A stretch of DNA of 64,000 nucleotides from Caulobacteraceae bacterium. GTDB lineage: Bacteria > Pseudomonadota > Alphaproteobacteria > Caulobacterales > Caulobacteraceae. The notes under the pieces are model-generated. The model was not told where the DNA came from and did not search any database. It saw nothing but the letters and a program-made list of their open reading frames with translations. How positions within the stretch are numbered: position 1 is the stretch's first letter; the number at the start of each line of letters is the position of its first letter. Below are positions 1,052-16,050 of the stretch, in pieces. A program made the position numbers and the translations under genes. The stretch is taken from assembly GCA_044346445.1 (NCBI GenBank), contig JBIIZD010000002.1:549-64548 (forward strand), read 5' to 3'.

Positions 1052-1600
1052 CTAAGGAACCTTTATCACCTCGACCTGATCAAGGGTTAGCTTGTTAGGT
1101 CCAGTCCTTGGCTCATTATACCCGTCAATGGCTAACCTCGCCCATCCGGCAAGATTGTCGATGACGACCTTATCTTCTGGAGTTTTCATGAAAATGGACA
1201 GGGTGTTATGTTTAGAGCAATCATAGTCTCTCGTTTTCTTTGTGCAGGCTGTGTGTATTATTCCCAGCGCGATAATACGGCCGTTCGGCTCTAGAACGGC
1301 GGCACCTTTCTCGAAACAACTATGATGCCGACAGGCCGTGAAGCGATAACGACTTCCAATGCGCGTCACATCATCCGAGGGTCCGCCAAGCACTTCCATG
1401 AGTTGAACGGCGACCGTAGCGTCCCAACCCAAATAATCGGCCTGACGAGTTCCGACGAACCTGTTTAGGGCCCTTTGGAAGGGTTTATCCCAGACCAACT
1501 GATTGGCACCTGAGCAGGCTTCTAATCGGTGCAGCGTACAGCCCGCTATATCCGCCTGTGCGGTCGCCATCATGGACATGGCTGCGAGCAAAGCGATCAT
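1052..1600 (-). CDS. hypothetical exported Cys-containing protein
   Basis: 182-aa ORF with an N-terminal signal peptide (MIALLAAMSMMATAQA) and 7 Cys in the mature part. The region is visibly lower in GC than its neighbours. No family recognised. Confidence 0.5.
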   Translation of the reverse strand: MIALLAAMSMMATAQADIAGCTLHRLEACSGANQLVWDKPFQRALNRFVGTRQADYLGWDATVAVQLMEVLGGPSDDVTRIGSRYRFTACRHHSCFEKGAAVLEPNGRIIALGIIHTACTKKTRDYDCSKHNTLSIFMKTPEDKVVIDNLAGWARLAIDGYNEPRTGPNKLTLDQVEVIKVP

Positions 1601-1735
1601 AAGCAGAATACCTTAACCCCGATTGATGGTTTAGGATATACTCTATCTGCTGTGCCTCAAAAAGAAAACATTAACCTATGATGGAATGGCCGGGTGAGTT
1701 TCCTGTCCAGATCAGCCTAAAACGCTCCCCTCACC

Positions 1736-4504
1736 CTAAACCAGCGACCCGTGACAGTGCTTGAACTTTTTGCCGGAGCCGCAGGGGCAGGGGCTGTTGC
1801 GGGCGGTGCGTTCCCAGCCGGTGGGCAGGGCGCTCATCGGCAGGGCGGCGCGCTGTTCAGGCGTCAGGCCGTCTGGGATGACGCCGCCAAAGCGTTCGTT
1901 CTCGCCGGTCTCGGGGTTCATATGCACCTCGATCAGGCCAGCCGAGGGTGGCTTGGCCGGAGCGGGGTCCTGATACTGGAACTCGACCGTCATCAGCCAA
2001 CGCGTCGTATTCATGCGCAGATCGCCGAGCAGTTTTTCAAACAGCGAGAAGGCTTCGGTCTTGTATTCGTTCAAGGGATCGCGCTGACCATAGCCGCGCA
2101 GGCCGATCACATTGCGCAAATGATCCAGATGCATCAGGTGCTCGCGCCATTGCAAATCGATCATCTGGAGCAGGAAGTTCTTTTCCAGACCGCGCATCTG
2201 CTCATCGCCAATCTGGCTCAAGCGTTCGGCGGCGCGGGTATCGGCGGCGGCCTGGATGCGGGCCAGCATTTCCTCATTGGCAATGCCGTCCTCGGCTGCC
2301 CAGTCGCGCAGTGGCAGGCTGAGGCCCAGTATGGTCTCGATCCGCTCTTCCAGCCCATCAATGTCCCATTTTTCGGCATAGGCCTTGGGCGGCAGGTGGC
2401 GATAGACCAGGTCCTCAATGGTGTCGTGACGCATTTCGGTGATGATGTCCGAAAGGTCGGTCGCCTCCATGAATTCCTGGCGTTGCTCGAACACGGCCTT
2501 GCGCTGGTCATTGACCACATCATCGTATTTGAGCAGGTTTTTGCGGATTTCGAAATTGCGCTGCTCGACGCGGCGCTGGGCCGTGGCAATGGCGCTATTG
2601 AGCCATTTATGGGTAATGGCCTCGCCTTCCTGAACGCCAAAGGTGCGCATGATGGAATCGAGCCGCTCGCCAGCAAAGATGCGCAACAGGTCGTCTTCGC
2701 AAGACAGGAAGAATTTGGACGTACCAGGGTCGCCCTGACGGCCGGTACGGCCGCGCAGCTGGTTATCAATGCGGCGGCTCTCGTGCCGCTCGGTGCCCAG
2801 AACGAACAGACCGCCTGCGGCCAAGGCCTTTTCGCGGCGATCGGCAATATCGGCCTCGATAATCTTGGATTGTTCGGCTTCCAGCTCTGGCGTGACCTCA
2901 ATGCCCATGCCGCGCTGCTGCTGACGCCAGGCGGTCATGCGCATGTCCAGATTGCCGCCGAGCTGAATATCGGTGCCGCGGCCAGCCATATTGGTGGCAA
3001 TGGTCACAGAGCCGGGCGAGCCGGCATCGGCAACGATCAGGGCCTCTTGCTCGTGATAACGCGCATTGAGCACATTGTGCGGAATCCCGTTCAGGGTCTT
3101 GCCGTCCAGCTCAAACTTGTGAAGCTTTAAAAGCTCCGACAGGGTTTCGGACTTTTCGATGGATACTGTACCCACCAGAACCGGCTGGCCTCGGCGATAA
3201 CAGTCCTCGATCTGGAGCAGGATGGAGGCGTTCTTTTCGCGCTCTGTGCGATAGACCTCGTCGTCAATATCAATCCGGCAGACAGGTCGGTTGGTCGGGA
3301 TCTCGGTCACTTCCATCTTATAGATGTCGTGGAATTCCGAGGCCTCGGTCGCGGCCGTGCCCGTCATGCCGGAAAGCTTGGAATAGAGGCGGAAATAGTT
3401 CTGGATGGTCACAGAGGCCAGGGTCTGGTTCTCGGGCTGGATGTCCGCGCCTTCCTTGGCCTCGATGGCCTGGTGCAGACCTTCGGAAAGCCGCCGACCC
3501 GTCATCATGCGACCGGTAAATTCGTCGATCAGGATCACCTCGCCGCCCTTGACGATATAATCCTTGTCGCGCTGATAAAGCTTGTTGGCGCGCATGGCCT
3601 GATTGATGTGGTGCACGGCCGAAATATTGGCCGGGTCATACAGGCCCGCTGAATCCTCGACCAGATGGCCAGCATCCATCAGCATTTGCTCGACCTTTTC
3701 CGAACCGTATTCGGTCAGAAGGATCTGGCGCTGCTTTTCGTCCAGATCAAAGGTTTCTTCGTCTTTCAGCATCTCCTTCACCACACCATCAATGATGCGA
3801 TAGAATTCAGAGCGATCCTCGGTCGGGCCGGAAATGATCAAGGGGGTGCGGGCCTCGTCGATCAAGATGGAGTCCACCTCATCGACGATACAGAAGTGAT
3901 GGCCGCGCTGGACCATTTCCTCGGTCGTATAGACCAGATTGTCGCGCAGATAGTCGAAGCCGAACTCGTTATTGGTGCCATAGGTGATGTCGCTGCGATA
4001 GGCGCGCTGGCGATCGCCCTGGCTTAGGCCATTGACGATCACACCGACCGACAGGCCCAAGAACTTATAGACCTTGCCCATCCATTCGGAGTCGCGCGCG
4101 GCCAGATAGTCATTGACCGTGATGACGTGCACGCCCTTGCCGGACAGGGCGTTGAGATAGGTTGGGGCCGTGGCGACCAGGGTCTTGCCCTCGCCGGTGC
4201 GCATTTCGGAAATGCCGCCCTGGTGCAAGACCATGCCGCCGACCAACTGGACATCATAGTGGCGCTGCCCCAGTGTGCGGCGAGACGCCTCGCGCACGGC
4301 GGCAAAGGCCTCGTTCATAATGTCATCAAGCGTCGCGCCCTTGGCCAGGCGGTCCTTGAATTCCTGGGTCTTGCCGCGCAGGGCCTCATCGCTCAAGGCC
4401 ATATAGGCTGGCTCAAGGGCGTTGATGAGCAGGGCACGGGCCCGGAAGGACTTGACCGTGCGGTCATTGGGAGAGCCGAAAAGCTTTTTAGCGAAGCCGA
4501 GCAT
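1736..4504 (-). CDS. secA: preprotein translocase ATPase SecA
   Basis: 922 aa. It carries DEAD-like motor motifs ([40 protein letters not shown]) and the C-terminal zinc-binding tail [14 protein letters not shown]. Confidence 0.97.
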
Positions 4505-4716
4505 GAACTGGTCCGATGGTCGCGAGGAAAGCGCACGGGGGAGGCCGTGACGCCCTTAGGTCTAGCATGTTAAGCTCCGCAGCCTTAACGCCTGATAATC
4601 CGGACACCGGACCATGGGCGAAAAACTCCTCGACTTGCACGCGCGCGAGACTTAAGCACCGACCTTGTTCGTGTCAACGTAACGGCTTTTTCTTTTCCTG
4701 ACGGGAGTCTGGTCTG

Positions 4717-5700
4717 ATGCGCCCCAGCCAAGGTTTCGGCCTTACCAAATTCCTTTGTCTGGGCGCGGTTTTACTGGCCTTGAGCGCTTGCGGGCCCGGC
4801 AAGATTGATGACAAGCCGCCAGAGCGCGGCGATGTGGCTGCGGCCCGGGTTGGTAACCAGACCATCTGGGCTTCCGACGTCAAGCGTGAAGCCATCTCTC
4901 AAGGCCTGATCGGCCAGGGCGAGCCCTTGGACATCTCGTCTGACCTGTTTCGGCGGGTGCTGGACGAGGTGATCGACCAAAAACTGCTGGCGGCCGAGGC
5001 GCGCAAGCGCAAGCTCGATACCAGTCCCTTGGCCCAGCGGCGGTTGGCCGCAGCCCAAGAGCGGGTGCTCGGCGATCTGTTGGTCGAGCAATCGGTCGAA
5101 AAGGCGGTCAATGAAAGCGCGATCCGCTCGCTCTATCAAGACCAACTCAAACAGGCCCGCCAGTCCGAAGAATTCCGCGCCCGCCAGATTGTCGTGGCCA
5201 GCCAGGCTGAGGCTGAGTCTGTGCGCAAATTACTCGCCGCCGGGGCCTCGTTCGAAGCCTTGGCCATGGAGCGCTCGATTGATTCGGCGACGCGCTTTAA
5301 TGGCGGCGATCTGGGGTATTTTACCGCTGACGTCATGCCAGAAGTCTATGTCACAGCCTTGAAATCGGCCACTTCTGGTGCGGTTGTTGGGCCGATCAAG
5401 ACCGATACCGGTTATGCGGTGCTGAAGGTGGAGGACCGTCGCCCCGAAGAGCCGATCACGCTTGAGGCGGCCCGCCCGCAGATTGTGCGCTTCCTGACCT
5501 ATGATCAGGTCCGCGAATTGCTGGAGAGTCTGCGCAAGAGTGCCAAGATCCAGACCCTGATCGGCCCACCCCTCGATGTGCCAGGCGCGCCGTCTGAACC
5601 GGCCTCAGCCCCGCCAGAGGCCCCAGCGACCGCGCCCGCGCCAGTGCCCGCGCCAGTGCCCGCGCCCGCGCCAGCCGCCAAGCCGGGCAAACCCTCATGA
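4717..5700 (+). CDS. parvulin-type peptidyl-prolyl cis-trans isomerase (SurA/PpiD-like), lipoprotein-like N-terminus, Pro/Ala-rich tail
   Basis: Signal/lipobox LLALSAC. Parvulin core FRARQIVV...GGDLGYF...GYAVLKVEDRR. C-terminal APAPVPAPVPAPAPAA tail encoded by short tandem DNA repeats. Confidence 0.85.
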   Translation: MRPSQGFGLTKFLCLGAVLLALSACGPGKIDDKPPERGDVAAARVGNQTIWASDVKREAISQGLIGQGEPLDISSDLFRRVLDEVIDQKLLAAEARKRKLDTSPLAQRRLAAAQERVLGDLLVEQSVEKAVNESAIRSLYQDQLKQARQSEEFRARQIVVASQAEAESVRKLLAAGASFEALAMERSIDSATRFNGGDLGYFTADVMPEVYVTALKSATSGAVVGPIKTDTGYAVLKVEDRRPEEPITLEAARPQIVRFLTYDQVRELLESLRKSAKIQTLIGPPLDVPGAPSEPASAPPEAPATAPAPVPAPVPAPAPAAKPGKPS

Positions 5701-7028
5701 GCGGGGTCTTTGTCCTACAAAGGTTTTTGGATGGTGCAGCGCGGCTCTTGAGTCCGGTGCGAGCCAGTGATGGGCCGGGCAAGCCGGGCCTGTTGGTCTC
5801 GCCCCTGGCTGTGCCGTTTCCGAACATACTGCCAATCGAAGGCGTTGAGATCGCGATTGGCCGGGCGGGTTATTATAAACATCAGCGCGATGACGTCCTG
5901 GTCATGCGCTTTGCTGAAGGCACGACCTGCGCCGGTGTGTTTACCCGTCATGCGGTGGGCTCGGCACCGGTGGACTGGTGCAAGCGCCAGCTTGAGGCCT
6001 CGGGCGGCGAGGATATCCGCGCCCTGGTGGTCAATGCCGGCTGTGCCAATGCCTTTACCGGCAAGCCAGGTGCCGATGCGGCCCGGCGCGTGGCCTCGGC
6101 CGTAGCAAAGCGGCTGGATATTCGCCAGCGCGATATCATGCTGGCCTCGACAGGGGTGATCGGGGTGGTGCTGGACGATGCCAAGCTCACCGCCCGCCTG
6201 CCAGAGCTTGAGGCCGAACTGGACGGCGGGCAAAGGACCTGGGCCAATGCGGCCCAGGCGATCATGACCACCGACACCTTTGCCAAGGGCGCTTTTGCCA
6301 CGGCCATGATCGAGGGCGTGCCCGTGCGCATCGCCGGGATCACCAAGGGCTCTGGCATGATTGCGCCGGACATGGCCACCATGCTGGCCTTTATTGCCAC
6401 CGATGCCGCCATAGCGCCCGCCGCCCTGCAGGCCCTGGTCAGCCTCTATACCCGCACCACCTTTAACGGGGTTACGGTCGATGGGGATACCTCGACCAAT
6501 GATACCTGCCTGCTGTTTGCCACGGGCAAGGCCGGTGCGCCCAGGATTGCCCGGGCCGGGGATCGCAGACTGGCCGATTTTCGCGAAAAGCTGGAACAGG
6601 TCATGCTCGATCTGGCGCTGCAACTCGTGCGCGACGGCGAGGGGGCCAGCAAGTTTGTCAAGATCACGGTCAATGGCGCCCAGTCGCCCGCCTCGGCGCG
6701 CAAGATTGCCAAGACGGTGGCCGAATCGCCCCTGGTCAAGACCGCCTTTGCCGGAGAAGACGCCAATTGGGGCCGGATTGTCATGGCCGTTGGCCGCGCC
6801 GATGAGCCAATCAATCGCGCGCGTCTGGGCATAAGGTTTGGCGATCTGATTGCTGCGGTCGATGGCGCGGTCTCGCCCGGCTATGACGAGGCGGCCATGA
6901 GCGCCTATATGAAAAACGCCGAGCTCGAGGTCAGTGTCGATGTCGGGGTCGGCCGGTCCAGCGCCTCGGTCTGGACCTGTGACCTGACCAAGCGGTATAT
7001 CGAGATCAATGGCGATTACAGAAGCTAA
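5697..7028 (+). CDS. argJ: bifunctional glutamate N-acetyltransferase / amino-acid acetyltransferase ArgJ
   Basis: Motifs ITKGSGMIAPDMATML (autoprocessing T) and DGDTSTNDT, ending YIEINGDYRS. The ATG overlaps the upstream stop (ATGA). The true start could be slightly downstream, since the first ~30 aa are not family-like. Confidence 0.9.
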   Translation: MSGVFVLQRFLDGAARLLSPVRASDGPGKPGLLVSPLAVPFPNILPIEGVEIAIGRAGYYKHQRDDVLVMRFAEGTTCAGVFTRHAVGSAPVDWCKRQLEASGGEDIRALVVNAGCANAFTGKPGADAARRVASAVAKRLDIRQRDIMLASTGVIGVVLDDAKLTARLPELEAELDGGQRTWANAAQAIMTTDTFAKGAFATAMIEGVPVRIAGITKGSGMIAPDMATMLAFIATDAAIAPAALQALVSLYTRTTFNGVTVDGDTSTNDTCLLFATGKAGAPRIARAGDRRLADFREKLEQVMLDLALQLVRDGEGASKFVKITVNGAQSPASARKIAKTVAESPLVKTAFAGEDANWGRIVMAVGRADEPINRARLGIRFGDLIAAVDGAVSPGYDEAAMSAYMKNAELEVSVDVGVGRSSASVWTCDLTKRYIEINGDYRS

Positions 7029-7434
7029 GCCCGCCCTGCCTTTGGTTCTGGTCGTGGCCTGCGCCCTGGTCGATACAGACGGCCGGGTGCTGATCTGCAA
7101 GCGCCCCGAAGGCAAGGCGCTAGCGGGCCTTTGGGAATTTCCCGGCGGCAAGGTCGAGCCGGGCGAGGGGCCAGAAGCGGCCCTGATCCGCGAAATGCAC
7201 GAAGAACTGGGCATTACGATTACCGCCAGTTGCCTGGCCCCATTCGTATTTGCCTCACACAGCTATGAGACCTTTCACCTTCTGATGCCGCTTTATCTGT
7301 GTCGGCGCTGGGAGGGGGTGGTGGTGGCCAAGGAACATGCGGCGCTCGCCTGGGTCAAACCCAACGCCCTCAGCACCTATGCCATGCCCCCCGCAGACGC
7401 GCCACTGGTCGCCTATCTGCGCGATTTTTTGTAG
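7009..7434 (+). CDS. mutT: NUDIX hydrolase, MutT-like 8-oxo-dGTP diphosphatase
   Basis: Nudix box GLWEFPGGKVEPGEGPEAALIREMHEELGI. 141 aa. Overlaps the argJ 3' end by 20 nt. Confidence 0.85.
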   Translation: MAITEAKPALPLVLVVACALVDTDGRVLICKRPEGKALAGLWEFPGGKVEPGEGPEAALIREMHEELGITITASCLAPFVFASHSYETFHLLMPLYLCRRWEGVVVAKEHAALAWVKPNALSTYAMPPADAPLVAYLRDFL

Positions 7435-7455
7435 ATTACTGAGGCTCAGGGGGTC

Positions 7456-7692
7456 TTGCTCGCTCCCAAGCCAGTTCAAGCCTGCGCCGTGCTGGAGGCC
7501 TGGTGGCGAGACCATAACGCACTGCAGCCACACTCGAAGCTCGGCTGGATGACACCGAGGGCCTATGCCAGCGCCTTATCCGCACAAACCCGCGACCGCG
7601 CTGCGCAGCCTAGAGGTGCCGCTGGGACGCCTCTTGCCAAACACACCAATGAAGGGTCAACTTACGGTAGGGCTCTCGTTGTGGTGGGGTGA
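7456..7692 (+). pseudogene. IS3-family transposase (OrfB / rve integrase core) C-terminal remnant
   Basis: The only recognisable part is ..VLEAWWRDHNALQPHSKLGWMTPRAYA.., matching the W..YN..RPHS.LG..TP..(F/Y) tail of DDE rve transposases. The catalytic core is missing, and the fragment begins right after the mutT stop. Confidence 0.6.
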
Positions 7693-7723
7693 GATATGGG
7701 GGTCAGGTCAATTGGTGCCAGAT
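7691..7723. repeat. left inverted repeat of the retron cassette (IS-end-like GGGGGTCAGGTCA)
   Basis: gagatatgggggtcaggtcaattggtgccagat aligns with the reverse complement of 9803-9835 (gagtttcagggggtcatgtcaatggtcgcagct). About 26 of 34 positions match with 2 single-nt indels. A third partial copy, gggggtgacgtca, lies at 7728-7740. Confidence 0.6.
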
Positions 7724-7796
7724 TTTTGGGGGTGACGTCACACGGCAGCCTCCGTTGCTCGGTCCTATTACTCCGCTTTAGTCTGTACAAACTTAG

Positions 7797-9569
7797 TTAG
7801 TTTGGCGGACTATAATGCTCGAGAACCGCGTTGATGCTTTCCAGAATGGGGGCGAACCCAGTCCAGTTCAAACTGGCAGCCTCCGGACGAATTATCCTCT
7901 CAGCGAAAATATGTTTTCCAAACTCTTTCGTTATATCGAGTTTATTTGGGTTGAATGTTTTTCCATTCAATTGTTTTACCCGTATCGCATGATCGAACAT
8001 GTCTTCAATGCAGGTTTTGATTTGTTTTCCAACATGTGGGGTCTTCACCACATAGAGGTTGTCAGTAATGTGGTAAAAATTCTCTTTCGATTCAACAGTG
8101 ATGTTTTTTTTATAATTTTCTTTAATGCAAAGAAATAGTTTCGTTGCTCCGTCGTCATTGTCGAGAAGAATTATAACTGGGTGCAGCTGTGGCCTGTGAC
8201 CAAACCCGAGCATGTGCTTATTATAGTCCTTTATGAGAGATTTAAAGTTTCCAGAGCCGCCATTTAACTCTAGGACGGAGCGGGTTTTATTATGATGATT
8301 AAATAATCGGAGCTTATTAACAAAACCATCTGACGTCATATACCCGAGTTTTGGTTGAAATTCAGGAGAGTATTTTATAGCAAGAGATAAATAAACATTG
8401 TCAGTTTTTCCTTCAGTAATTATTAGTGGTTTATCCAGTGTGACAAAATTTTTGTAAAATAGGAATTTGAAGTAGAGATTTCGAAATGCTGTCTTTAATT
8501 TCCGTTTTTTAATTTCATCGCGTGGATCGATCTCATTTTTAACATAGTGAATGTGGGCTAGCCTGCCTGTTAGGGGACCAAGAGATTTTGTAAGAGACTT
8601 ATGCGACAGGGAGGTAGTAGCTATTTCAGGCACCATCTCAACTGCCTCAGATTTCGTAACAACCTCCACGGCTGGTTTCAACAAAGCTCGCGGATGATCA
8701 ATCCAGTATTCCCCCCTCTTGAACAACGCATCGCACATCGCTCGCGTAAAGCGGTAATAATCGGACTGGACATTGACCTTCTGATTGACCGTCAAACCAG
8801 TAACGATCTTGCGAGACATCCCACATTGCATGCGGGTTTTTTCCGGTTTCACGGTAAAATAAGTATCTTTTATCCGCTTAGCTAAATCTGGGCCGAGGTC
8901 CCACTTTCCCGCTACAATCGGATCCTGAATTGCTACCGCTTCGGGGAACGTTTTTTGGTTGGTCGAGAAGGTGATATCGTCCGCATAGCGTGAATATGTA
9001 ATCCTCTCCTTCTTCGCGAGTTGCGCCAAACGAACATCAAGCAAATGGGTGATTAGGTCTGCAATCACTGGTGAGCATGGACTGCCTTGTGGAAGCTGGT
9101 TGTCATAACATGCGATCTGAGCAATGAGCGTTGCCACCTTGTCATTCAATGCGAACGCTCTGTTTTTTATAAAAAATCCCCGCACCCGCCCGAAATTGAA
9201 AGTCGGGAAAAAATCTTTTAGGTCTAGATTGAAGACGTAACGCCTACGCTGATGCGGCTTGGCATTGGTTACTATTGAGTGACCACGACGAAACCCGTGT
9301 GACAACGAAGCGAGACCGCTCTCTCTGTCGATCTCCGCGCGACACGCGTAGAGAAGATTAGCTAGGCGTCGTTGTAATAGTTTCAATTGAGCGGTCGGGG
9401 CGCATATGTCTCGTACACCGCCGTTTTTTTTAGGGATTTGGAAGCGTTCGTACTTTTCGGACGGATCAAGCTTGTAAAGGATGAATGCGAGTGCATCCGG
9501 CCTGTACCCGAGTAAGGCCGATAGGTCTTTAATGTTGGTTGCTGATTTAAGTTTTTTTAGAGAGGACAC
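7797..9569 (-). CDS. retron-type reverse transcriptase fused to a C-terminal Toprim domain (Ec67 / Retron-Eco2-like architecture)
   Basis: 590 aa with a GTG start. RT motifs: NAKPH (aa 102-106), LDLKDFFPTF, LPQGSPCSP, YADD (aa 195-198) and the retron-typical RKIVTGLTVN (VTG, aa 256-258). The C-terminal part has LIITEGKTD (E386) and ILLDNDDG (aa 470-473), the Toprim E and DxD signatures. Confidence 0.88.
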   Translation of the reverse strand: MSSLKKLKSATNIKDLSALLGYRPDALAFILYKLDPSEKYERFQIPKKNGGVRDICAPTAQLKLLQRRLANLLYACRAEIDRESGLASLSHGFRRGHSIVTNAKPHQRRRYVFNLDLKDFFPTFNFGRVRGFFIKNRAFALNDKVATLIAQIACYDNQLPQGSPCSPVIADLITHLLDVRLAQLAKKERITYSRYADDITFSTNQKTFPEAVAIQDPIVAGKWDLGPDLAKRIKDTYFTVKPEKTRMQCGMSRKIVTGLTVNQKVNVQSDYYRFTRAMCDALFKRGEYWIDHPRALLKPAVEVVTKSEAVEMVPEIATTSLSHKSLTKSLGPLTGRLAHIHYVKNEIDPRDEIKKRKLKTAFRNLYFKFLFYKNFVTLDKPLIITEGKTDNVYLSLAIKYSPEFQPKLGYMTSDGFVNKLRLFNHHNKTRSVLELNGGSGNFKSLIKDYNKHMLGFGHRPQLHPVIILLDNDDGATKLFLCIKENYKKNITVESKENFYHITDNLYVVKTPHVGKQIKTCIEDMFDHAIRVKQLNGKTFNPNKLDITKEFGKHIFAERIIRPEAASLNWTGFAPILESINAVLEHYSPPN

Positions 9570-9591
9570 GGAGTTGGTGCCTTACTTTGCA

Positions 9592-9731
9592 TGGCTTACA
9601 GGCACTCCTACGCGATCATCGAACCATTCGACTGTAATCGGTCAAACGGCAATAAGGGTCATCGGGAAGCAACGACTACTGGCATCGCTTCATATGTCGC
9701 GAAGCGCGACAACAAATCTGCCTGTAAGCCA
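9592..9731 (-). ncRNA. candidate retron msr-msd non-coding RNA (a1/a2-flanked)
   Basis: A perfect 13-bp inverted repeat, tggcttacaggca (9592-9604) / tgcctgtaagcca (9719-9731), encloses 114 nt and ends 22 nt upstream of the RT start on the same strand. A G (9718) follows a1 directly. Two hairpins in the 5' half (9696-9710 and 9666-9691) pair fully only in the minus-strand RNA, through G-U pairs. Confidence 0.65.
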
Positions 9732-9737
9732 CACCAC

Positions 9738-9766
9738 TCACTACGAAACCAAAAGTTATTTTACAA
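9738..9766 (-). promoter_or_regulatory. candidate promoter for the retron transcript
   Basis: On the minus strand: TTGTAA (9766-9761), a 17-nt spacer, then TAGTGA (9743-9738). This would place the TSS at about 9731, the first base of a1. The -10 is weak. An alternative -10, TAAAAT, sits at 9763-9758. Hexamer matching only. Confidence 0.3.
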
Positions 9767-9802
9767 GCTTTAGTTTAAGAGAGAAATGCGGGGGGCGGGA
9801 AC

Positions 9803-9835
9803 AGCTGCGACCATTGACATGACCCCCTGAAACTC
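9803..9835. repeat. right inverted repeat of the retron cassette (IS-end-like TGACATGACCCCC)
   Basis: See 7691-7723. Read on the + strand, TGACATGACCCCCTGAAAC looks like the outer end of an IS3-family element. Confidence 0.6.
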
Positions 9836-9873
9836 ATCCTAAATGCTCTTCAGTCCGCTCCAAGGGGCCGCCC

Positions 9874-11502
9874 CTACAGCTTCTCGCGCTTTAACTTGAT
9901 GCCGGCGGCTTCGCGGTCCCAGGTGTCGGGGGTGATGGCGTCCTTGCGCAGCTTGGCCTTGATGACCTTGGCGGTGGGGGTCTTGGGCAGTTCGTCGAGT
10001 ATGCGGATATAGCGCGGGACCATGAAATAGGGCAGGCGGCCTTCTAGAAAGCTGATCAGCTCAGCCTTGTCGATACTGCGGCCTGGCACCGGCGCGATCA
10101 CGGCCATGACCTCGTCTTCGGAATAGGCGCTTGGCACGCCGATCACGGCGGCTTCGCGCACATCGGGATGGGCGACAATATCGTTCTCGACCTCAAAGGA
10201 TGAGATGTTTTCGCCGCGGCGGCGGATGGCGTCTTTTACCCGGTCGACAAAGTAATAATAGCCGTCCTCGTCGCGCTTAAAGGCGTCGCCGGTGTGGAAC
10301 CAGCCATTGCGCCAGGCCTTGGCCGTGGCCTCTGGATTATTGTGATAGCCGCTATTCATGGCAAAGGGCCGGTCGGTGCGCACCAGCATTTCGCCAACCG
10401 CGCCGATGGCAACCTCGCAGTCATTTTCATCGACCAGCCGCACATCCACGCCGCGCCGCACCGTGCCGCAAGTGCCCGGTTTGACCGGATTGGGATCAGA
10501 CACAATCGGAGACGAGATCTCGGTCATGTTGAAAATCGTATAAATATCAATGCCAAACCGGTCATGGAACGGGCCAGACACCTCGGTCAGGGGCACCATG
10601 AGGGCTGTGCGCACCTTGTGGGCGCGGTCGGCGTCGCTGGGCGGGTTCTTGATCAGGAAGGTGGCCATGACGCCCAGAAGGAAGATCGAGGTGCACTCGG
10701 TCTTGCGCACAAAATCCCAGAAGGTATCGGTCGAGAAATTCTCCATCAGGGCAATTGATCCGCCCCTTGCCAGCATCACAAAGGGCAGGCCCAGCCCGCC
10801 AATATGGAAGATGGGCATATTGACCAAGAACCGGTCTTCGCCGGTGATAAACGGCCAGCTATCGGGGCCTGCATTGGTATAGAGGTGCAGATAGGACGAC
10901 AAGACGCCCTTGGATGGTCCGGTCGTGCCCGAGGTATAGATCACCGACTGGGTGTCCCAAGGCTCGATAGGCCGGGCCAGCGGCGCAAGCTCGTCCTCGG
11001 TGCCAGTCAGGCTTTCAAACGCGCTGGCGCTAAACCGCGCCGGGGCCTGGCCATCGCCCAGCACCACCACATGACGCACGGCGGCGGCATCAGCATCCTC
11101 CAGACGCTCCAATAGGCCCGCATGCGCAATCAGCAGGCGGGCATCGGAATTTTTGAGCACATGCTCCAGGATCGCGCCGCGATAGGCCGTGTTAAACGGC
11201 ACAAACACCGCGCCCAGATAATTGATCGCATAAAAGGTCAATAAGGCCTGGTGGCAATTGGGCAGCCATACCGCGACATGATCGCCCTGTTTGACGCCAA
11301 GCTTTTGCAGGCCAACGGCCACGGCAATGGTTTGGGTTCTAAGCTGGCTATAGGTCCAGTGACTGCCATCCTCGAACACGGCATAGACCTGATCGCCGCG
11401 CTCCTGGTCCATCCTGTCCATCAGGTCGCGCAGCACGCAGACCGCGCGGTTAGGCACGCGATGGTCGCCATGCTTGGCATTGGAGAGGGTAGTGGATGTC
11501 AT
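9874..11502 (-). CDS. AMP-dependent acyl-CoA synthetase/ligase
   Basis: 542 aa. AMP-binding motifs IYTSGTTGPSKGV, GWFHTGD and the C-terminal PKTPTAKVIK. Confidence 0.9.
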   Translation of the reverse strand: MTSTTLSNAKHGDHRVPNRAVCVLRDLMDRMDQERGDQVYAVFEDGSHWTYSQLRTQTIAVAVGLQKLGVKQGDHVAVWLPNCHQALLTFYAINYLGAVFVPFNTAYRGAILEHVLKNSDARLLIAHAGLLERLEDADAAAVRHVVVLGDGQAPARFSASAFESLTGTEDELAPLARPIEPWDTQSVIYTSGTTGPSKGVLSSYLHLYTNAGPDSWPFITGEDRFLVNMPIFHIGGLGLPFVMLARGGSIALMENFSTDTFWDFVRKTECTSIFLLGVMATFLIKNPPSDADRAHKVRTALMVPLTEVSGPFHDRFGIDIYTIFNMTEISSPIVSDPNPVKPGTCGTVRRGVDVRLVDENDCEVAIGAVGEMLVRTDRPFAMNSGYHNNPEATAKAWRNGWFHTGDAFKRDEDGYYYFVDRVKDAIRRRGENISSFEVENDIVAHPDVREAAVIGVPSAYSEDEVMAVIAPVPGRSIDKAELISFLEGRLPYFMVPRYIRILDELPKTPTAKVIKAKLRKDAITPDTWDREAAGIKLKREKL

Positions 11503-11617
11503 GGCTGCGCCCCATATTAGCAGTCGGGTAGAAAAATCTACTAGGCCAAGGGCAGCCTACTGTCTTAGCACTGGCGCGGCAATGGTGCGGGCGGATGCGC
11601 GTGCAGATTTGTCGGGT

Positions 11618-12298
11618 CTAGTTGCGTGCGCGCAGCGTAATCTTCATGACCATATGGATGGCATCCATCACCACCTCGGTCGCTGACCAGCGCCCGCCCT
11701 CGTGATACCAGTTGGCAATCCAGCTGAGCAGGCCGCTGATCCAGATCGCGGCGCGCGAGGCGTCTTCAAACTCAAACTCGCCCGCAGCCTTGCCCTTTTG
11801 CAAAAGGGTGCTGAGCTTTTGATCAAATTGGTGACGCAGCAGGCGGATACGCCGGGCCTCATCAGGCTCCAGGCTCATTTCTTCGCGCTGATAGACGCTG
11901 ATATAGCGCTGGTTTTCGATAATGATCCGCGCCACCCGCTCAACCACCATTTTCAACTGCTCGGTCGCCGTGCCGTCAACGGCCAAGGCATCTTCCAGCG
12001 CGCTGAGCGATAGCTGAATGCCGGTCTGGCAGATCTCGAACAATAGCTCGCTCTTATTGCGATAATAGGAATAGATGAAGGGCTTGGTGACCTGGAGTTG
12101 CTCGGCAACGGCGTCCAGGGTCGTGGCCTCATAGCCGTGTTTGAAGAACAGAAGGCTGGCTTCTTCGACAATGCGCCGACGCTTATAGGCGGCAATCTCG
12201 TTCTTGAGCGGTGCGGTCTGTCGCTTGGCCGCCTTGGCATCGATCATGGATTTAGGTTCCGCAAGAAAGGCGTGAGCCACCCGATTAGGTTGCCTCAC
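11618..12298 (-). CDS. TetR family transcriptional regulator
   Basis: N-terminal HTH (RRRIVEEASLLFFKHGYEATTLDAVAEQLQVTKPFIYSYYRNK). The start may instead be the internal Met at about 12247. Confidence 0.85.
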   Translation of the reverse strand: MRQPNRVAHAFLAEPKSMIDAKAAKRQTAPLKNEIAAYKRRRIVEEASLLFFKHGYEATTLDAVAEQLQVTKPFIYSYYRNKSELLFEICQTGIQLSLSALEDALAVDGTATEQLKMVVERVARIIIENQRYISVYQREEMSLEPDEARRIRLLRHQFDQKLSTLLQKGKAAGEFEFEDASRAAIWISGLLSWIANWYHEGGRWSATEVVMDAIHMVMKITLRARN

Positions 12299-12324
12299 GC
12301 CCTAGATCAAGCTGCATAGGCGGT

Positions 12325-13539
12325 TTAGCCGACCGCTGTTCGCAAAATTTCCATGACGTCCTCGGCCTTAGCGATCGGGCGAGGATTGGTGCGGCCCCAG
12401 AAATCTTCCAAGGTATATTCGGCGATCAGCGGGAATTGATCTTCTGAGACACCAACGGCCTTAAGACTGCGGGGCATGCCAAGGCCGCTGATCAACTTGT
12501 CTAAGAGGTCCGAGGCGGTGCGGCCAGTATCGCCCAGGCAGGCGCTGATGCGCACCTGACGATGGGCATTGACGGGCGCATTAAAGGCCTGAACAAACGG
12601 CGACATCACACAGGACGTATAGCCGTGCGGCACATCGCAAGTGCCGCCCAGGACGTGACCAATGGCATGGCTGGCCCCCATAGGCACGCCGCCCATGATC
12701 GGCAGCATGGACTGCCAGGCACCGATCTGGCACTTGAGCCTTGCATCCAGATCGCCAGGATTGGCCTTGACCTTGGGCAGGCCCTCGGCCAGCAGGCGCA
12801 GCGCGCTGTCGGCAATACCGTCGCAATAGTCATTGGATTGCAAAGACCCCAAGGTCTCGACCGCATGGTCCACCGAGCGCACGCCCGTCGATAGCCAAAG
12901 CCATTCGGGCGTATGGACCGTTATGGCAGGGTCCAGAATGACGGCAATCGGCACCATCATGCGCTGTTCAAAGCCTTGCTTAAGCTTGATGCGCTCGTCG
13001 GTCGCGCCGGACAGGGGGTTGAACTCACCGCCCGATAGTGTGGTCGGCACACAGATGGCGCGGATATCGGGGGCGTCAAAGACCGGTTGGATGACGCTGC
13101 CGTCTTCTTCGACATAGGTGCGAAAGCCGTCAAAGCCTTCGATGGTGGTGATATTGTGCTTCAGGCAGATCAGGATGATCTTGCCCGCATCCGTGACCGA
13201 GCCACCACCGACCGTGACCACCAGATCGGTCTTGACCGCACGGGCCCGCTCTGCGGCGGCCAGCACATCGCTGCGCGGCGCATTGGGGCGGATGCCGGTA
13301 TGGGTGGCGGCGTGGCGGCTGCCCAGAGCCTTTTCAATCTTGCGGATCTCGTCGGTTTGTTCGTTCAGCGTGCTTCCGGCCAGGATAAAGACGCGCTGAG
13401 CGTTCAGGCGTTCGGCCTCTGCTGCTATGGCTTCGGCGGCTGGCACACCCAGATGAACCCGCTCGGTGGCTGTTAAGACGACCTGTGATGCCGCAACCAT
13501 GATAGAACTTCCCTCTGAGCCTGACGGACGGCCCGCCAT
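12325..13539 (-). CDS. iron-containing alcohol dehydrogenase family (maleylacetate reductase-like)
   Basis: 404 aa. GGGS.TD nucleotide-binding motif (VTVGGGSVTDAGK) and His-rich metal site (SHAIGHVLGG..DVPHG). The start may be at about 13500. Confidence 0.8.
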   Translation of the reverse strand: MAGRPSGSEGSSIMVAASQVVLTATERVHLGVPAAEAIAAEAERLNAQRVFILAGSTLNEQTDEIRKIEKALGSRHAATHTGIRPNAPRSDVLAAAERARAVKTDLVVTVGGGSVTDAGKIILICLKHNITTIEGFDGFRTYVEEDGSVIQPVFDAPDIRAICVPTTLSGGEFNPLSGATDERIKLKQGFEQRMMVPIAVILDPAITVHTPEWLWLSTGVRSVDHAVETLGSLQSNDYCDGIADSALRLLAEGLPKVKANPGDLDARLKCQIGAWQSMLPIMGGVPMGASHAIGHVLGGTCDVPHGYTSCVMSPFVQAFNAPVNAHRQVRISACLGDTGRTASDLLDKLISGLGMPRSLKAVGVSEDQFPLIAEYTLEDFWGRTNPRPIAKAEDVMEILRTAVG

Positions 13540-13908
13540 TTTTTGATGTTACTGGACAGTAGCAAAAACCATGTCTCGGTCAATCGGCAGGCGGTATTGT
13601 TTATTTTTTCGGTGACGCCGGGGCCGGGCAGGACCGCGAGCGCGCCCGCAAATCTTAACAAGCTATGACCTAAGCCTTAGTCAAACCGCCCATTACGACC
13701 AGCAACCCACCAAATTGAGCGGTGAGTGACTTTGATCGGCAACCTAATTCTGACACATACCGGAGATTAAAGGGGTTCTTGATCAATGCAGCCCGCCTTG
13801 ATTACGAGTGCGGGTTCAGTTGATCGGCTCCGCGTGCCGTTTGGTGGTCATGTCGCAAAGATTTTCGCGGCGTCACAGGTTTTGACGTCGGTCGGTAGGG
13901 AGCCCAAA

Positions 13909-14511
13909 ATGAAGCCGTTAGAAAACGGGTCTAAGCCATCTACCCGCTATGGAAACCTCGTTCGACTTGTGGCTGGATTTGCGCTGGTCCTATTCTCATC
14001 TTCGTTTGGCACGATCGACAGCGTCCGGGCCAATGGGCTTGGCGAAAACTTTGACTGGCAGTTTCGCAGCACTGCGGACAAGGCGGCCATGGTCGCCATG
14101 CAGGACCTGATCCAAAAGCGCAAGGGCGGCTATTACGCAGCGCCGGTTTACAACACCAAGATCGACCGGCAGTATAATTGCAATGTCGCGGCCAGCGGTC
14201 AGGGCAATAATGGCTCCAACTCGACCGTGACCCATTCGCCCAATACCAATGGTTCGGTCGTGACCCCGACGGGCAATCAAAATGCGACCACGACGACCGG
14301 TACGCCAAGCTTTGGCGGCTCGTCCGGTGTGGCAACGGATCAGACCAATACCGGTGCCGTATCGGCGGCCCTGACCGGCTCGACCAGTACAGCCGTCAGC
14401 GGGCAGGCTTGGCAGGCCTTGAATTCCGACCAGTCCAATTCTGGCGCGGTCGTGTCGTCTGTGACCGGCTCGACGGCTTGCACATTTGGTGCCTACGGCG
14501 CTTTGAACTGA
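13909..14511 (+). CDS. secreted curlin/HfaA-like Gln/Asn/Thr/Ser/Gly repeat protein
   Basis: ATG at 13909 preceded by GGGAG 6 nt upstream; the longer ORF from 13786 lacks this. It has a signal/TM segment (LVRLVAGFALVLFSSSFG). The C-terminal half is made of degenerate Q/N-x-N/S-x-G..S..TGS repeats. It lies immediately upstream of a CsgG-like gene. Confidence 0.6.
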   Translation: MKPLENGSKPSTRYGNLVRLVAGFALVLFSSSFGTIDSVRANGLGENFDWQFRSTADKAAMVAMQDLIQKRKGGYYAAPVYNTKIDRQYNCNVAASGQGNNGSNSTVTHSPNTNGSVVTPTGNQNATTTTGTPSFGGSSGVATDQTNTGAVSAALTGSTSTAVSGQAWQALNSDQSNSGAVVSSVTGSTACTFGAYGALN

Positions 14512-14515
14512 TTAA

Positions 14516-15898: not shown

Positions 15899-15917
15899 TC
15901 GTCCTTATATCAATAAA

Positions 15918-15935
15918 ATTTCCGCAAAATTGCAT
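15918..15935. promoter_or_regulatory. AT-rich box AATTTCCGCAAAATTGCA (copy 1 of 2)
   Basis: Near-identical to 16809-16827 (AATTTCCGTAAAATTTGCA). It lies 116-133 bp upstream of the ATG at 16051. Confidence 0.35.
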
Positions 15936-16050
15936 TAGATGTGGATTCAGATAATTTTTTACTTAAAATTGACACAAAGAATGCCGATAAACTGTTAATT
16001 CAATTTTGATTGCAGTTAGAAACCTGACCATCTGTTGTAAGGATAATCTT

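What the first reader, a model, noticed from the sequence alone, without database searches (positions are those of the whole stretch)
7797..9569. Retron-type reverse transcriptase fused to a Toprim nuclease-like domain, a likely anti-phage retron in an AT-rich island
Seen in sequence: a 590-aa ORF has an N-terminal ~320 aa with the full RT motif set (LDLKDFFPTF, LPQGSPCSP, YADD). It also has two motifs that, to my knowledge, separate retron RTs from group II intron, DGR and Abi RTs: NAxxH (NAKPH) and the VTG box (RKIVTGLTVN). After a ~60-aa basic linker, the C-terminal ~200 aa carry ITEGKTD and ILLDNDDG, the conserved Glu and DxD of Toprim domains as in OLD-family nucleases and primases. Established knowledge, from memory: an RT-Toprim single-polypeptide architecture is that of E. 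coli retron Ec67 (Retron-Eco2, RT of about 586 aa), and retrons are abortive-infection-type phage defence systems. Inference: this is a one-gene effector-fused retron. It sits in a genome whose flanking genes look alphaproteobacterial, where I am not aware of characterised retrons. Its trigger, the target of the Toprim domain and the role of the msDNA are all open.
Basis: partly seen in the sequence, partly recalled or inferred. Interest (0 to 1): 0.78.

Follow-up and report, generated by a model that had tools for sequence, protein, structure and literature searches.

The report
Ec67-type retron in a Caulobacter relative
This is a complete but ordinary member of the known Ec67/Eco2 (type I-C) retron family of anti-phage systems, one gene fusing a reverse transcriptase to a Toprim nuclease plus its small RNA, sitting in a strain-variable defence hotspot of a freshwater Caulobacter-like bacterium.

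Summary
A 590-aa ORF (7797-9569, minus strand) carries all the quoted motifs. It matches the curated Ec67-retron models end to end (NCBIfam NF038237, 680 bits against a cutoff of 450; PADLOC RT-Toprim_I-C, E=8e-215) and the solved Eco2 structure (E=1e-113, 38% identity). All catalytic residues are invariant in 28 homologues: YADD 195-198, E386/D390 and D470/D472. The modelled C-terminal domain superposes on Eco2's TOPRIM domain (TM 0.85-0.88). A canonical msr-msd lies at 9592-9731, with 13-nt perfect a1/a2 repeats and a branching G at 9718. It aligns with authentic Ec67 RNA and is supported by strong covariation across 58 loci. The family is common (at least 589 species genomes; 30 of the 80 loci fetched are alphaproteobacterial) and NCBI already annotates it in Alphaproteobacteria. 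Eco2's trigger, target and msDNA role were solved in 2025-26, so they are no longer open. Additional finding: the 2.4-kb retron module (7435-9814), next to an IS remnant, fills a slot where sister strains carry TIR+SoFic defence genes or an oxidoreductase/TetR set. Verdict: new member of a known kind, low interest.

The parts
7797..9569 (-). RT-Toprim fusion gene (590 aa, GTG start, stop codon included)
   Evidence: ORF. Full-length PADLOC RT-Toprim_I-C and NCBIfam NF038237 matches. Aligns with aa 5-581 of the Eco2 chain 9i2f at E=1.2e-113. 38% identity to E. coli Ec67.
8670..9569 (-). Reverse-transcriptase domain (about aa 1-300): NAKPH 102-106, YADD 195-198, VTG 256-258
   Evidence: Pfam RVT_1 over aa 45-250. 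Motif positions. Y195-A-D-D198, N102/A103/H106 and V256/T257 are invariant in 28 homologues.
8472..8669 (-). Linker/thumb-bridge segment (about aa 301-366). It aligns poorly with the Eco2 region that holds the trimer-contact loop (Eco2 residues 325-347) but is conserved within the close subclade (SLGPLxGRLAHIH.VK..ID)
   Evidence: Alignments. Conserved columns L330, P332, G335, L337, H339, I340, K344, D348. Eco2 loop as described in PMC12916289.
7800..8471 (-). Toprim nuclease domain (aa 367-590): E386/D390 (EGKTD), D470/D472 (DND), E522
   Evidence: phmmer against Eco2 chain residues 356-581, E=2.4e-31. AF2 model pLDDT 88.6. Foldseek TM 0.85-0.88 to the Eco2 TOPRIM domain. Residues invariant. 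They equal Eco2 E374/D378/D460/D462/E515.
9592..9731 (-). Retron non-coding RNA (msr-msd), bounded by the a1/a2 inverted repeats
   Evidence: 13-nt perfect inverted repeat with 114 nt between the arms. Fold -65.4 kcal/mol, z=-5.9. Same geometry in 62 relatives. Aligns with authentic Ec67 ncRNA.
9719..9731 (-). a1 repeat (TGGCTTACAGGCA). Pairing extends to 9734 in the fold.
   Evidence: All 11 aligned a1/a2 pairs show compensatory changes.
9592..9604 (-). a2 repeat (TGCCTGTAAGCCA). It ends 22 nt before the GTG start, and pairing extends to 9589.
9718..9718 (-). Predicted branching guanosine (priming 2'-OH) in the invariant 'AG' that follows a1
   Evidence: Columns A16/G17 are invariant in 58 loci. 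It occupies the same position as the G in GGCA-G-ATTT of Ec67. Its function is inferred by homology.
9695..9711 (-). msr hairpin 1 (GTCGCGC-TTC-GCGCGAC type)
   Evidence: Fold. All 7 pairs show changes on both sides and 98.3% of cells are paired.
9606..9683 (-). Predicted msd template, giving a predicted msDNA of about 78 nt (5'-TCCTACGCG...CTACTGGC-3')
   Evidence: Derived by transferring the Eco2 start and termination points (A of the invariant GAGT; G52:dC67 from PMC12916289) through the alignment. The same rule reproduces a 67-nt product for Ec67. This is an inference, not a measurement.
9742..9767 (-). Promoter-like block (GCTTG...N~18...CGTA/GGTA) about 12 nt upstream of a1
   Evidence: The block is conserved upstream of a1 in most alphaproteobacterial relatives. 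No E. coli-type sigma-70 consensus was found there. This is an inference only.
7435..9814 (.). Strain-specific insert (2.38 kb, GC 0.47) holding the IS remnant and the retron
   Evidence: Sister-strain contigs are 99.8% identical up to 7435 and 98.3% identical from 9815 onward, with different cargo in between.
7456..7692 (+). Remnant of an IS transposase C-terminus (rve_3 integrase core)
   Evidence: Pfam rve_3 E=6e-06, 26.4 bits, just under the 26.5 cutoff, matching profile positions 40-67 of 67.
7697..7740 (-). Two IS-end-like motifs (TGACCTGACCCCCA at 7710 to 7697; TGACGTCACCCCCA at 7740 to 7727). A third, TGACATGACCCCC, lies at the right junction (9815-9827, + strand).
   Evidence: Direct repeat D5. 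Junction sequences. Reading them as IS3/IS407-type terminal repeats comes from my memory and was not tested.

Best explanation
The locus is a complete type I-C retron of the Ec67/Retron-Eco2 family, in the same PADLOC sub-model group as Eco2. It was acquired horizontally into a defence hotspot of a Caulobacteraceae-like bacterium.

Shown here: the gene, its catalytic residues, the fold of its C-terminal domain, and a conserved, co-varying msr-msd RNA directly upstream.

Inferred by homology with Eco2:
1. One transcript starts just upstream of a1 (about 9735) and carries both the ncRNA and the RT-Toprim mRNA.
2. The RT binds the msr hairpin and primes from the 2'-OH of G9718, using the a1/a2 duplex.
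3. It copies the msd (9606 to 9683) into a branched msDNA of about 78 nt, and the template RNA is then removed.
4. RT-Toprim and msDNA assemble into an auto-inhibited nucleoprotein complex (a trimer in Eco2) in which the msDNA cages the Toprim active site.
5. A phage-encoded DNA endonuclease cuts the msDNA (DenB of T-even phages and A1 of T5 are the ones implicated for Eco2), and host nucleases finish its degradation.
6. The freed Toprim domain (E386/D390/D470/D472, two-metal catalysis) then acts as an RNase that nicks tRNA acceptor stems and other RNAs. This shuts down translation and aborts the infection.
For: - Family profiles: PADLOC RT-Toprim_I-C, E=7.7e-215, full length. NCBIfam NF038237, 680 bits against a cutoff of 450. 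Authentic Eco2 scores best on the same two PADLOC sub-models, PDLC02966 and PDLC02963, with near-equal bits.
- Solved structure: end-to-end match to Eco2 chains 9i2f and 9lm3 at E=1.2e-113, 38% identity.
- Catalytic residues YADD, E386, D390, D470, D472 and E522 are invariant in homologues. They correspond to the Eco2 residues whose mutation abolishes RNase activity and defence.
- C-terminal domain model: pLDDT 88.6, TM 0.85-0.88 to the Eco2 TOPRIM domain.
- ncRNA: a1/a2 repeat and fold z=-5.9. The same geometry occurs in 62 of the 72 related loci examined, with an invariant AG after a1 and an invariant GAGT before a2. Covariation: 98.6% of cells paired against 29-47% in slid controls, 18 of 20 pairs with double changes, 0 of 500 shuffles as good.
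- The ncRNA aligns block by block with the authentic Ec67 ncRNA, which was verified in 14 E. coli genomes.
- Defence context: sister strains carry a TIR protein (PDC-S66/ThsB-like) plus SoFic in the same slot.
- Mechanism source: PMC12916289 and PMC12405507.
Against: - Nothing functional was measured for this locus: no msDNA, no expression data, no phage phenotype.
- Identity to Eco2 is only 38%.
- The segment matching Eco2's trimer-contact loop (Eco2 residues 325-347) aligns poorly and carries a 12-residue insertion, so the oligomeric state may differ.
- The Eco2 metal-B ligand S513 is Cys (C520) here.
- The predicted msDNA is longer than Eco2's (78 against 67 nt), and its termination point is only transferred by alignment.
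- DenB and A1 belong to coliphages, so the trigger in a Caulobacter-like host is unknown.
- Generic Toprim/OLD profiles do not reach significance, and fold matches to OLD and AriB are weak (E=0.05-0.2).
- No Rfam family matched the ncRNA.
- The adjacent IS remnant shows the neighbourhood has been rearranged, so the native promoter context is uncertain.
Confidence: 0.88

Rival explanations
1. The locus is an inactive relic: a retron carried in by IS-mediated rearrangement that is no longer expressed or no longer makes msDNA, and is drifting toward loss.
For: A truncated IS transposase fragment and solo IS-end-like motifs flank it. No sigma-70 consensus promoter lies upstream of a1. Only one contig in the protein collection carries this exact protein, and exact-protein look-ups found no further contigs. 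Sister strains lack it.
Against: The ORF is full length, with no frameshift or premature stop. Every catalytic and family-invariant residue is intact. The a1/a2 arms are 13/13 perfect and the invariant AG and GAGT are present. A promoter-like block conserved in relatives is retained inside the insert.
Confidence: 0.07
2. The RT belongs to a different RT class: a retron type XI (RT-protease) or XII (RT-TIR), a group II intron RT, a DGR RT, or an Abi/UG/DRT reverse transcriptase.
For: The RT domain alone also scores well against the RT-TIR_XII and RT-Protease_XI models (E about 1e-95). These share RT clade 8 with type I-C (Mestre et al.). PMC12916289 notes that some I-C sequences are mislabelled as type XII.
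Against: Those matches cover essentially the RT part only, and the NCBIfam TIR-RT model scores 288 bits against a cutoff of 600. The C-terminal domain is Toprim by fold, not TIR or protease. The group II intron RT model scores 56.7 against 300, Drt2 27 against 390 and Drt3a 22 against 200. No group II intron or other RNA family was found by Rfam. A retron-type a1/a2 ncRNA is present.
Confidence: 0.02
3. It is a genuine type I-C retron whose effector logic differs from Eco2: a different oligomer, a different nucleic-acid target (DNA rather than tRNA), or a different trigger such as msDNA modification rather than cleavage.
For: Identity to Eco2 is 38%. The trimer-loop region has diverged, while a different motif is conserved in the subclade. 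C520 stands at the Eco2 S513 metal-B position. The msDNA is predicted to be longer. The ncRNA is unusually conserved relative to the gene: 83% against 64% nucleotide identity with the Brevundimonas relative.
Against: The active-site residues and overall Toprim fold are the same as in Eco2. The ncRNA blocks that contact the RT are conserved. There is no positive evidence for another target.
Confidence: 0.2

Closest known systems
Retron-Eco2 (Ec67), type I-C1, E. coli (PDB 9I2F/9I2G/9S1F, 9LM3)
   Same: - Single polypeptide with an RT fused to a C-terminal Toprim domain, of similar length (590 against 586 aa).
- Same retron motifs (NAxxH, YADD, VTG) and the same Toprim residues (EGKTD, DND, E522).
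- Same best PADLOC sub-models.
- Same ncRNA layout: a1, then G, then ATTTGTTG, then msr hairpin, variable msd, GGAGT and a2, ending about 20 nt before the start codon.
   Different: - Only 38% identical.
- The linker region that holds Eco2's trimer-contact loop has diverged and carries an insertion.
- C520 replaces S513.
- Predicted msDNA is about 78 nt rather than 67 nt.
- The host is a Caulobacteraceae-like alphaproteobacterium with about 59% GC.
- The genomic context is a chromosomal IS-scarred hotspot, whereas in E. coli strain 2012C-4502 the retron sits among prophage-type genes (replication endonuclease, DinI-like, portal, terminase).
Alphaproteobacterial 'retron Ec67 family' proteins already in NCBI (Xanthobacter variabilis 64%, Hartmannibacter diazotrophicus 61%, Brevundimonas sp. 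61-62%)
   Same: Same subclade. The architecture is the same, and the ncRNA of the Brevundimonas MAG locus L001 is 83% identical to the window's.
   Different: Different host lineage and insertion site. None of them has been characterised experimentally, as far as the searched literature shows.
OLD-family, PARIS AriB and Gabija GajA Toprim nucleases
   Same: The Toprim catalytic core (Glu plus DxD, two-metal chemistry). PARIS AriB and P2 OLD are also phage-triggered tRNA-cleaving effectors (abstracts).
   Different: - This protein has no ABC-ATPase partner or domain.
- Regulation is by msDNA caging, not by an ATPase sensor.
- Sequence profiles are not significant and fold matches are weak (E=0.05-0.2, TM about 0.3-0.4).
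- Eco2 nicks the acceptor stem, whereas PARIS cuts the anticodon stem.
Retron types XI (RT-protease) and XII (RT-TIR)
   Same: RT clade 8, an effector fused to the RT C-terminus, and a one-gene design.
   Different: The effector domain here is Toprim, not a protease or TIR domain.

Membership tests
Retron type I-C (Ec67/Eco2 family; NCBIfam NF038237; PADLOC RT-Toprim_I-C) | Full-length match to the curated family model, above its cutoff | tested here: met
   NF038237: 680.3 bits against a cutoff of 450, aa 4-586 on profile positions 1-572 of 572. PADLOC PDLC02966: E=7.7e-215. Eco2 itself scores best on the same models.
Retron type I-C (Ec67/Eco2 family) | Retron-type RT with NAxxH, YxDD and VTG motifs | tested here: met
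   NAKPH 102-106, YADD 195-198, VTG 256-258. They align with the same Eco2 motifs and are invariant in homologues.
Retron type I-C (Ec67/Eco2 family) | C-terminal fused Toprim domain with motif IV EGxxD and motif V DxD (the I-C1/I-C3 signature; I-C2 has DxE) | tested here: met
   EGKTD 386-390 and DND 470-472. Definitions from Mestre et al. 2020. Invariant in homologues.
Retron type I-C (Ec67/Eco2 family) | C-terminal domain adopts the Eco2 TOPRIM fold | tested here: met
   AF2 model pLDDT 88.6, pTM 0.88. Foldseek against 9lm3, 9i2f and 9s1f: E=1e-18 to 4e-15, TM 0.85-0.88, rmsd about 2.6 A.
Retron type I-C (Ec67/Eco2 family) | msr-msd ncRNA directly upstream on the same strand, closed by a1/a2 inverted repeats, with a conserved branching G after a1 | tested here: met
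   Conserved geometry in 62 relatives. Covariation. Alignment with authentic Ec67 ncRNA.
Retron type I-C (Ec67/Eco2 family) | Single-gene system with no separate effector gene | tested here: met
   The strain-specific insert is only 2.38 kb. It holds the ncRNA, the fusion gene and an IS fragment, and nothing else.
Retron type I-C (Ec67/Eco2 family) | Produces branched msDNA in vivo | not testable with these tools
   Only predicted: about 78 nt from template 9683..9606.
Retron type I-C (Ec67/Eco2 family) | Confers anti-phage defence through nuclease-triggered msDNA loss and Toprim RNase activity | not testable with these tools
   Known for Eco2 only (PMC12916289, PMC12405507).
Retron type I-C, sub-variant C1 versus C3 | Placement in the reference RT/Toprim tree and ncRNA type of Mestre et al. 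| tested here: inconclusive
   The motifs fit both C1 and C3. Sharing best PADLOC sub-models and ncRNA blocks with Eco2 favours C1. No reference tree was built.
Generic Toprim / OLD-family nuclease (Pfam Toprim families; ATPase plus Toprim) | Significant match to Toprim/OLD sequence profiles, and an N-terminal ABC ATPase for OLD proper | tested here: not met
   No Pfam Toprim hit at E<=1 for this protein. OLD-like_TOPRIM reaches only E=0.14, in 3 of 28 homologues. Foldseek matches to OLD and AriB are weak, E=0.05-0.2. There is no ATPase domain. It is a Toprim-superfamily member only through Eco2.
Retron type XII (RT-TIR) / type XI (RT-protease) | C-terminal TIR or trypsin-like protease domain | tested here: not met
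   NF042941 scores 288 bits against a cutoff of 600 and covers aa 13-286 only. The C-terminal domain is Toprim.
Group II intron RT/maturase | Match to the group II RT model above cutoff, and an intron RNA | tested here: not met
   TIGR04416 scores 56.7 bits against a cutoff of 300. No intron RNA family in 7000-10500.
DRT / UG / Abi reverse transcriptases | Match to DRT models above cutoff | tested here: not met
   Drt2 scores 27.3 against 390 and Drt3a 22.3 against 200.

The most novel reading that the evidence does not exclude
The alphaproteobacterial subclade to which this retron belongs may work as a variant of Eco2 rather than a copy of it. Several features point that way. The linker has its own conserved motif (SLGPLxGRLAHIH.VK..ID) in place of Eco2's trimer-contact loop. 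The msDNA is predicted to be about 78 nt. Cys stands at a metal-B ligand position. The ncRNA is much more conserved than the protein (83% against 64% nucleotide identity). This subclade could therefore assemble differently, or sense a different class of phage nuclease or DNA-modifying enzyme. The NUDIX/acyl-CoA-synthetase slot could also be a previously undescribed, IS-scarred defence hotspot in freshwater Caulobacteraceae.
Probability: 0.2. Interest if true: 0.4.

Novelty: new member of a known kind. Interest (0 to 1): 0.2.

Why it matters
The locus matters little on its own. It would be annotated automatically by NCBI's Ec67-family model, and the family's structure, trigger and target are now published. 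Its modest value is threefold:
- It is a clean, complete type I-C retron from a Caulobacter-like host. With a defined ncRNA, branching G and predicted msDNA, it could serve to test whether the Eco2 mechanism (msDNA cage, nuclease trigger, tRNA nicking) generalises beyond enterobacteria, and to find triggers in Caulobacter phages.
- It gives a natural example of defence-gene turnover at a single chromosomal slot among near-identical strains.
- The 58-locus ncRNA alignment shows which positions are invariant across the family (AG after a1, GAGT before a2). That is useful for engineering retrons.

Tried and rejected
- Rfam scan of 7000-10500 at E<=10 found no retron msr family or any other credible RNA family, only three chance-level hits. 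The ncRNA was therefore established by inverted repeats, folding, covariation and alignment with Ec67.
- Pfam finds only RVT_1, with no Toprim family for this protein. Scanning 28 homologues gives at best OLD-like_TOPRIM at E=0.14 and RloB at E=0.13. Generic Toprim profiles are therefore not a usable test for this lineage.
- A PDB sequence search with the C-terminal domain alone at E<=10 returns only Eco2.
- Exact-protein contig look-ups for the RT and the acyl-CoA synthetase found nothing. Look-ups with ArgJ and NUDIX worked.
- The sigma-70 consensus scan found no promoter upstream of a1 and no terminator after the gene. The promoter-like block comes only from comparison with relatives.
- I searched the retron insert for a relic copy of the synthetase 3' end, which is present in the sister-strain cargoes. 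None was found.
- The 'catalytic lysine K562' named in PMC12405507 could not be mapped. By my count from the alignment, position 562 of the E. coli 2012C-4502 protein is Asp. The lysines invariant in the family are K537 and K552 (Eco2 K530 and K546). I make no claim about it.
- The group II intron, DGR, DRT/Abi and retron XI/XII readings were considered and rejected on profile scores and C-terminal fold.
Full report
**1. The observation**

Every quoted motif is present:
- NAKPH 102-106
- LDLKDFFPTF 115-124
- LPQGSPCSP 159-167
- YADD 195-198
- RKIVTGLTVN 253-262
- ITEGKTD 384-390 (E386, D390)
- LLDNDDG 468-474 (D470, D472)

The gene lies in a low-GC patch. The insert 7435-9814 has GC 0.47 against 0.586 for the window, and the Toprim-encoding half has GC 0.38. 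The neighbours are alphaproteobacterial. ArgJ (5697-7028) is 77-80% identical to Caulobacter and Caulobacteraceae proteins, and identical copies occur in freshwater metagenome assemblies.

**2. What the protein is**

- Pfam sees only RVT_1 (E=7e-21).
- PADLOC gives full-length matches to RT-Toprim_I-C (E=7.7e-215 and 3.2e-213).
- NCBIfam gives retron_Ec67_fus (NF038237) at 680 bits against a curated cutoff of 450, covering aa 4-586 on profile positions 1-572 of 572.
- Competing RT classes fall far below their cutoffs:

| Model | Score (bits) | Cutoff (bits) |
|---|---|---|
| TIR-RT (NF042941) | 288 | 600 |
| Group II intron RT (TIGR04416) | 57 | 300 |
| Drt2 | 27 | 390 |
| Drt3a | 22 | 200 |

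- The protein aligns end to end with the solved Retron-Eco2 (Ec67) chains 9I2F and 9LM3 at E=1.2e-113. It is 38% identical to the E. coli protein.
- Authentic Eco2 scores best on the same two PADLOC sub-models, at 718 and 717 bits against 713 and 707 for the window. The window therefore falls in Eco2's own subgroup.
- In an alignment of 28 homologues, Y195-A-D-D198, N102/A103/H106, V256/T257, E386-G-K-T-D390, D470-N-D472 and E522 are all invariant.
- These Toprim residues correspond to Eco2 E374/D378/D460/D462/E515. Mutating them abolishes RNase activity and defence (PMC12916289; PMC12405507).
- Mestre et al. define I-C1/I-C3 by Toprim motif IV EGxxD plus motif V DxD, and I-C2 by DxE. The window has EGKTD and DND.

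**3. The Toprim question**

That test is not met. There is no Pfam Toprim hit for this protein. Among the 28 homologues, the best result is OLD-like_TOPRIM at E=0.14, in three members.

**4. The missing half: the ncRNA**

Immediately upstream of the gene, on the same strand, there is a perfect 13-nt inverted repeat: a1 at 9731 to 9719 (TGGCTTACAGGCA) and a2 at 9604 to 9592. The arms are 114 nt apart, and a2 ends 22 nt before the GTG. The 156-nt RNA folds at -65.4 kcal/mol, with z=-5.9 against shuffles. The fold is the classic retron shape: a long closing duplex, two small hairpins and a longer msd hairpin.

I fetched 80 related loci from species-representative genomes. Of the 72 I could examine for an upstream repeat, 62 have an a1/a2 repeat with the same geometry: 96-123 nt between the arms in the typical loci, with a2 ending within 5-45 nt (typically about 20 nt) of the start codon. 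In most of them a1 is followed by GATT.

In a 58-sequence alignment:
- The AG after a1 and the GAGT before a2 are invariant.
- All 11 a1/a2 pairs and all 7 pairs of msr hairpin 1 show compensatory double changes.
- 98.6% of cells are paired, against 29-47% when the partners are slid by 1-3 columns, and 0 of 500 shuffles reach the observed values.

One caveat applies. The loci were selected for having an inverted repeat, which biases helix 1 but not helix 2.

The Ec67 ncRNA sequence I recalled from memory was verified. It is 100% identical in 14 complete E. coli genomes, at the start of the annotated Ec67-family gene. The window RNA aligns with it block by block: GGCA-G-ATTTGTTG, the msr hairpin, and GGAGTGCCTG.

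Using the published Eco2 termination point (G52:dC67, with U51 flipped), the rule 'start opposite the A of GAGT, stop opposite the aligned G52' reproduces a 67-nt Ec67 msDNA. Applied to the window, it predicts a 78-nt msDNA (template 9683..9606) primed from G9718. This is a prediction by homology only. A promoter-like block (GCTTG, about 18 nt, then GGTA/CGTA) is conserved about 12 nt upstream of a1 in most alphaproteobacterial relatives and lies inside the insert at about 9742-9767. Rfam did not recognise the RNA.

**5. Mechanism**

Shown here: the sequence, the fold and the RNA structure are those of an Eco2-type retron. Every functional step below is inferred from the Eco2 work.
- Eco2's RT-TOPRIM and its branched msDNA form a trimeric complex in which the msDNA cages the nuclease.
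- The T-even endonuclease DenB cuts the msDNA, and phage A1 of T5 is also implicated.
- Loss of the msDNA exposes and re-shapes the active site.
- The enzyme then nicks tRNA acceptor stems 6-7 nt from the CCA end, cuts other RNAs promiscuously, and stops translation.

I rate membership of the family at about 0.9, and an Eco2-like mechanism, given membership, at about 0.7-0.8. Reasons for caution:
- Identity to Eco2 is 38%.
- The linker that holds Eco2's trimer-contact loop (residues 325-347) aligns poorly and has a 12-residue insertion. The subclade conserves a different motif there.
- C520 replaces the metal-B ligand S513.
- Caulobacter-type phages do not obviously encode DenB or A1. This last point comes from my own knowledge and was not tested.

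**6. Context**

Contigs from near-identical strains are 99.8% identical over window 524-7435 and 98.3% identical over 9815-16154, and they carry different DNA between these points.

| Strain set | Cargo between NUDIX and the acyl-CoA synthetase |
|---|---|
| This window | IS remnant plus retron (7435-9814) |
| L085, L086, L088 | FAD/NAD oxidoreductase, a 244-aa protein with no family match, and a TetR regulator |
| L087, L089 (about 92% identical) | TIR protein matching PADLOC PDC-S66/ThsB (E=2e-43) and a SoFic homologue (E=4e-45) |

The slot between the NUDIX gene and the acyl-CoA synthetase gene is therefore a strain-variable hotspot that repeatedly hosts defence genes. The window's insert also contains a transposase C-terminal fragment (rve_3, just under cutoff). 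IS-end-like motifs (TGACCTGACCCCC) occur at 7697-7710, at 7727-7740 and at the right junction 9815-9827. The sister cargoes carry degenerate copies of the synthetase gene's 3' end, which suggests repeated insertion at this site.

In E. coli strain 2012C-4502 the Ec67 retron sits in a different context, among prophage-type genes (replication endonuclease, DinI-like protein, portal protein, terminase). In the relatives checked, the retron genes usually have lower GC than their flanks, consistent with horizontal spread.

**7. Comparison with what is known, and novelty**

The family is large. More than 6000 proteins match at E<=1e-10 in the protein collection, and at least 589 species-representative genomes carry a relative. 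By my count of record titles, 30 of the best 80 loci are alphaproteobacterial, including Brevundimonas, Rhizobium, Mesorhizobium, Methylobacterium, Afipia, Bartonella and Sphingomonas. NCBI already labels the Xanthobacter, Brevundimonas and Hyphomicrobiaceae homologues 'retron Ec67 family RNA-directed DNA polymerase/endonuclease'.

I found no paper that characterises an alphaproteobacterial retron of this type experimentally. The statement that the trigger, the target and the msDNA role are open is superseded by PMC12405507 (2025) and PMC12916289 (2026).

Verdict: the identification is correct, the locus is a new member of a known kind, and interest is low (0.2). The most novel reading not excluded is that this subclade differs from Eco2 in assembly or trigger, and that the slot is an undescribed Caulobacteraceae defence hotspot. 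I put its probability at about 0.2.

Noticed in passing
window 7435-9814, compared with L085:10428-14086, L087:6297-8828 and L089: The slot between the NUDIX (mutT-like) gene and the acyl-CoA synthetase gene is a strain-variable hotspot. Near-identical strains carry one of three cargoes: this retron; a TIR protein (PADLOC PDC-S66/ThsB-like, E=2e-43) plus SoFic (E=4e-45); or an FAD/NAD oxidoreductase, a 244-aa protein with no family match, and a TetR regulator.
   Followed up: yes
L085:10428-10549 and L087:7435-7630, against window 9815-10010: The alternative cargoes carry degenerate copies (88.5% and 85.7% identity) of the 3' end of the acyl-CoA synthetase gene. This suggests successive insertions at that gene's 3' end. 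No such relic was found in the retron insert.
   Followed up: partly
window 7456-7692 (+), 7697-7710, 7727-7740 and 9815-9827: There is an IS transposase C-terminal fragment (rve_3, 26.4 bits against a cutoff of 26.5) and three copies of an IS-end-like motif, TGAC(C/G/A)T(G/C)ACCCCC. One copy sits exactly at the right junction, and sister strains share it. The IS family was not determined.
   Followed up: partly
window 9589-9734 against L001:2835-2980; CDS 7797-9569 against L001:3001-4761: The ncRNA, including the normally hypervariable msd, is 83% identical to that of a Brevundimonas MAG. The RT-Toprim genes are only 64% identical at the nucleotide level (62% at the amino-acid level). This points to strong constraint on the msd, or to ncRNA exchange, within this subclade.
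   Followed up: partly
window 7800-8790 against 8790-9569: The Toprim-encoding part of the gene is much more AT-rich than the RT part (GC 0.38 against 0.48; GC3 0.39 against 0.51). Relatives show a smaller and inconsistent difference. The cause is unknown: amino-acid composition or a mosaic origin.
   Followed up: partly
window residue C520 (codon at about 8010-8012, minus strand): The position aligned with Eco2 S513, reported as a metal-B ligand, is Cys here and in most close homologues (KTCIED or KSCIED).
   Followed up: no
L084:3990-5930 (E. coli NZ_CP027440.1): The RefSeq CDS for the Ec67-family protein is annotated as starting at 3990. It therefore runs through the whole msr-msd (4001-4132) and is about 60 codons longer than the 586-aa protein that aligns with the window and the PDB chain. 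This looks like an over-extended start call.
   Followed up: no
window 59868-60330, also 54501-54584 and L085:2049-2161 and 3404-3509: An intergenic tandem array of three units of about 154 bp (84-89% identical, G-rich ends) has further dispersed copies in the window and in sister-strain contigs. It looks like a REP/MITE-like repeat and is unrelated to the retron.
   Followed up: partly
PMC12405507, against L084 protein numbering: The 'catalytic lysine K562' named for Eco2 does not map to a Lys in my alignment of the E. coli 2012C-4502 protein, where position 562 is Asp by my count. The lysines invariant in the family correspond to Eco2 K530 and K546 (window K537 and K552).
   Followed up: no
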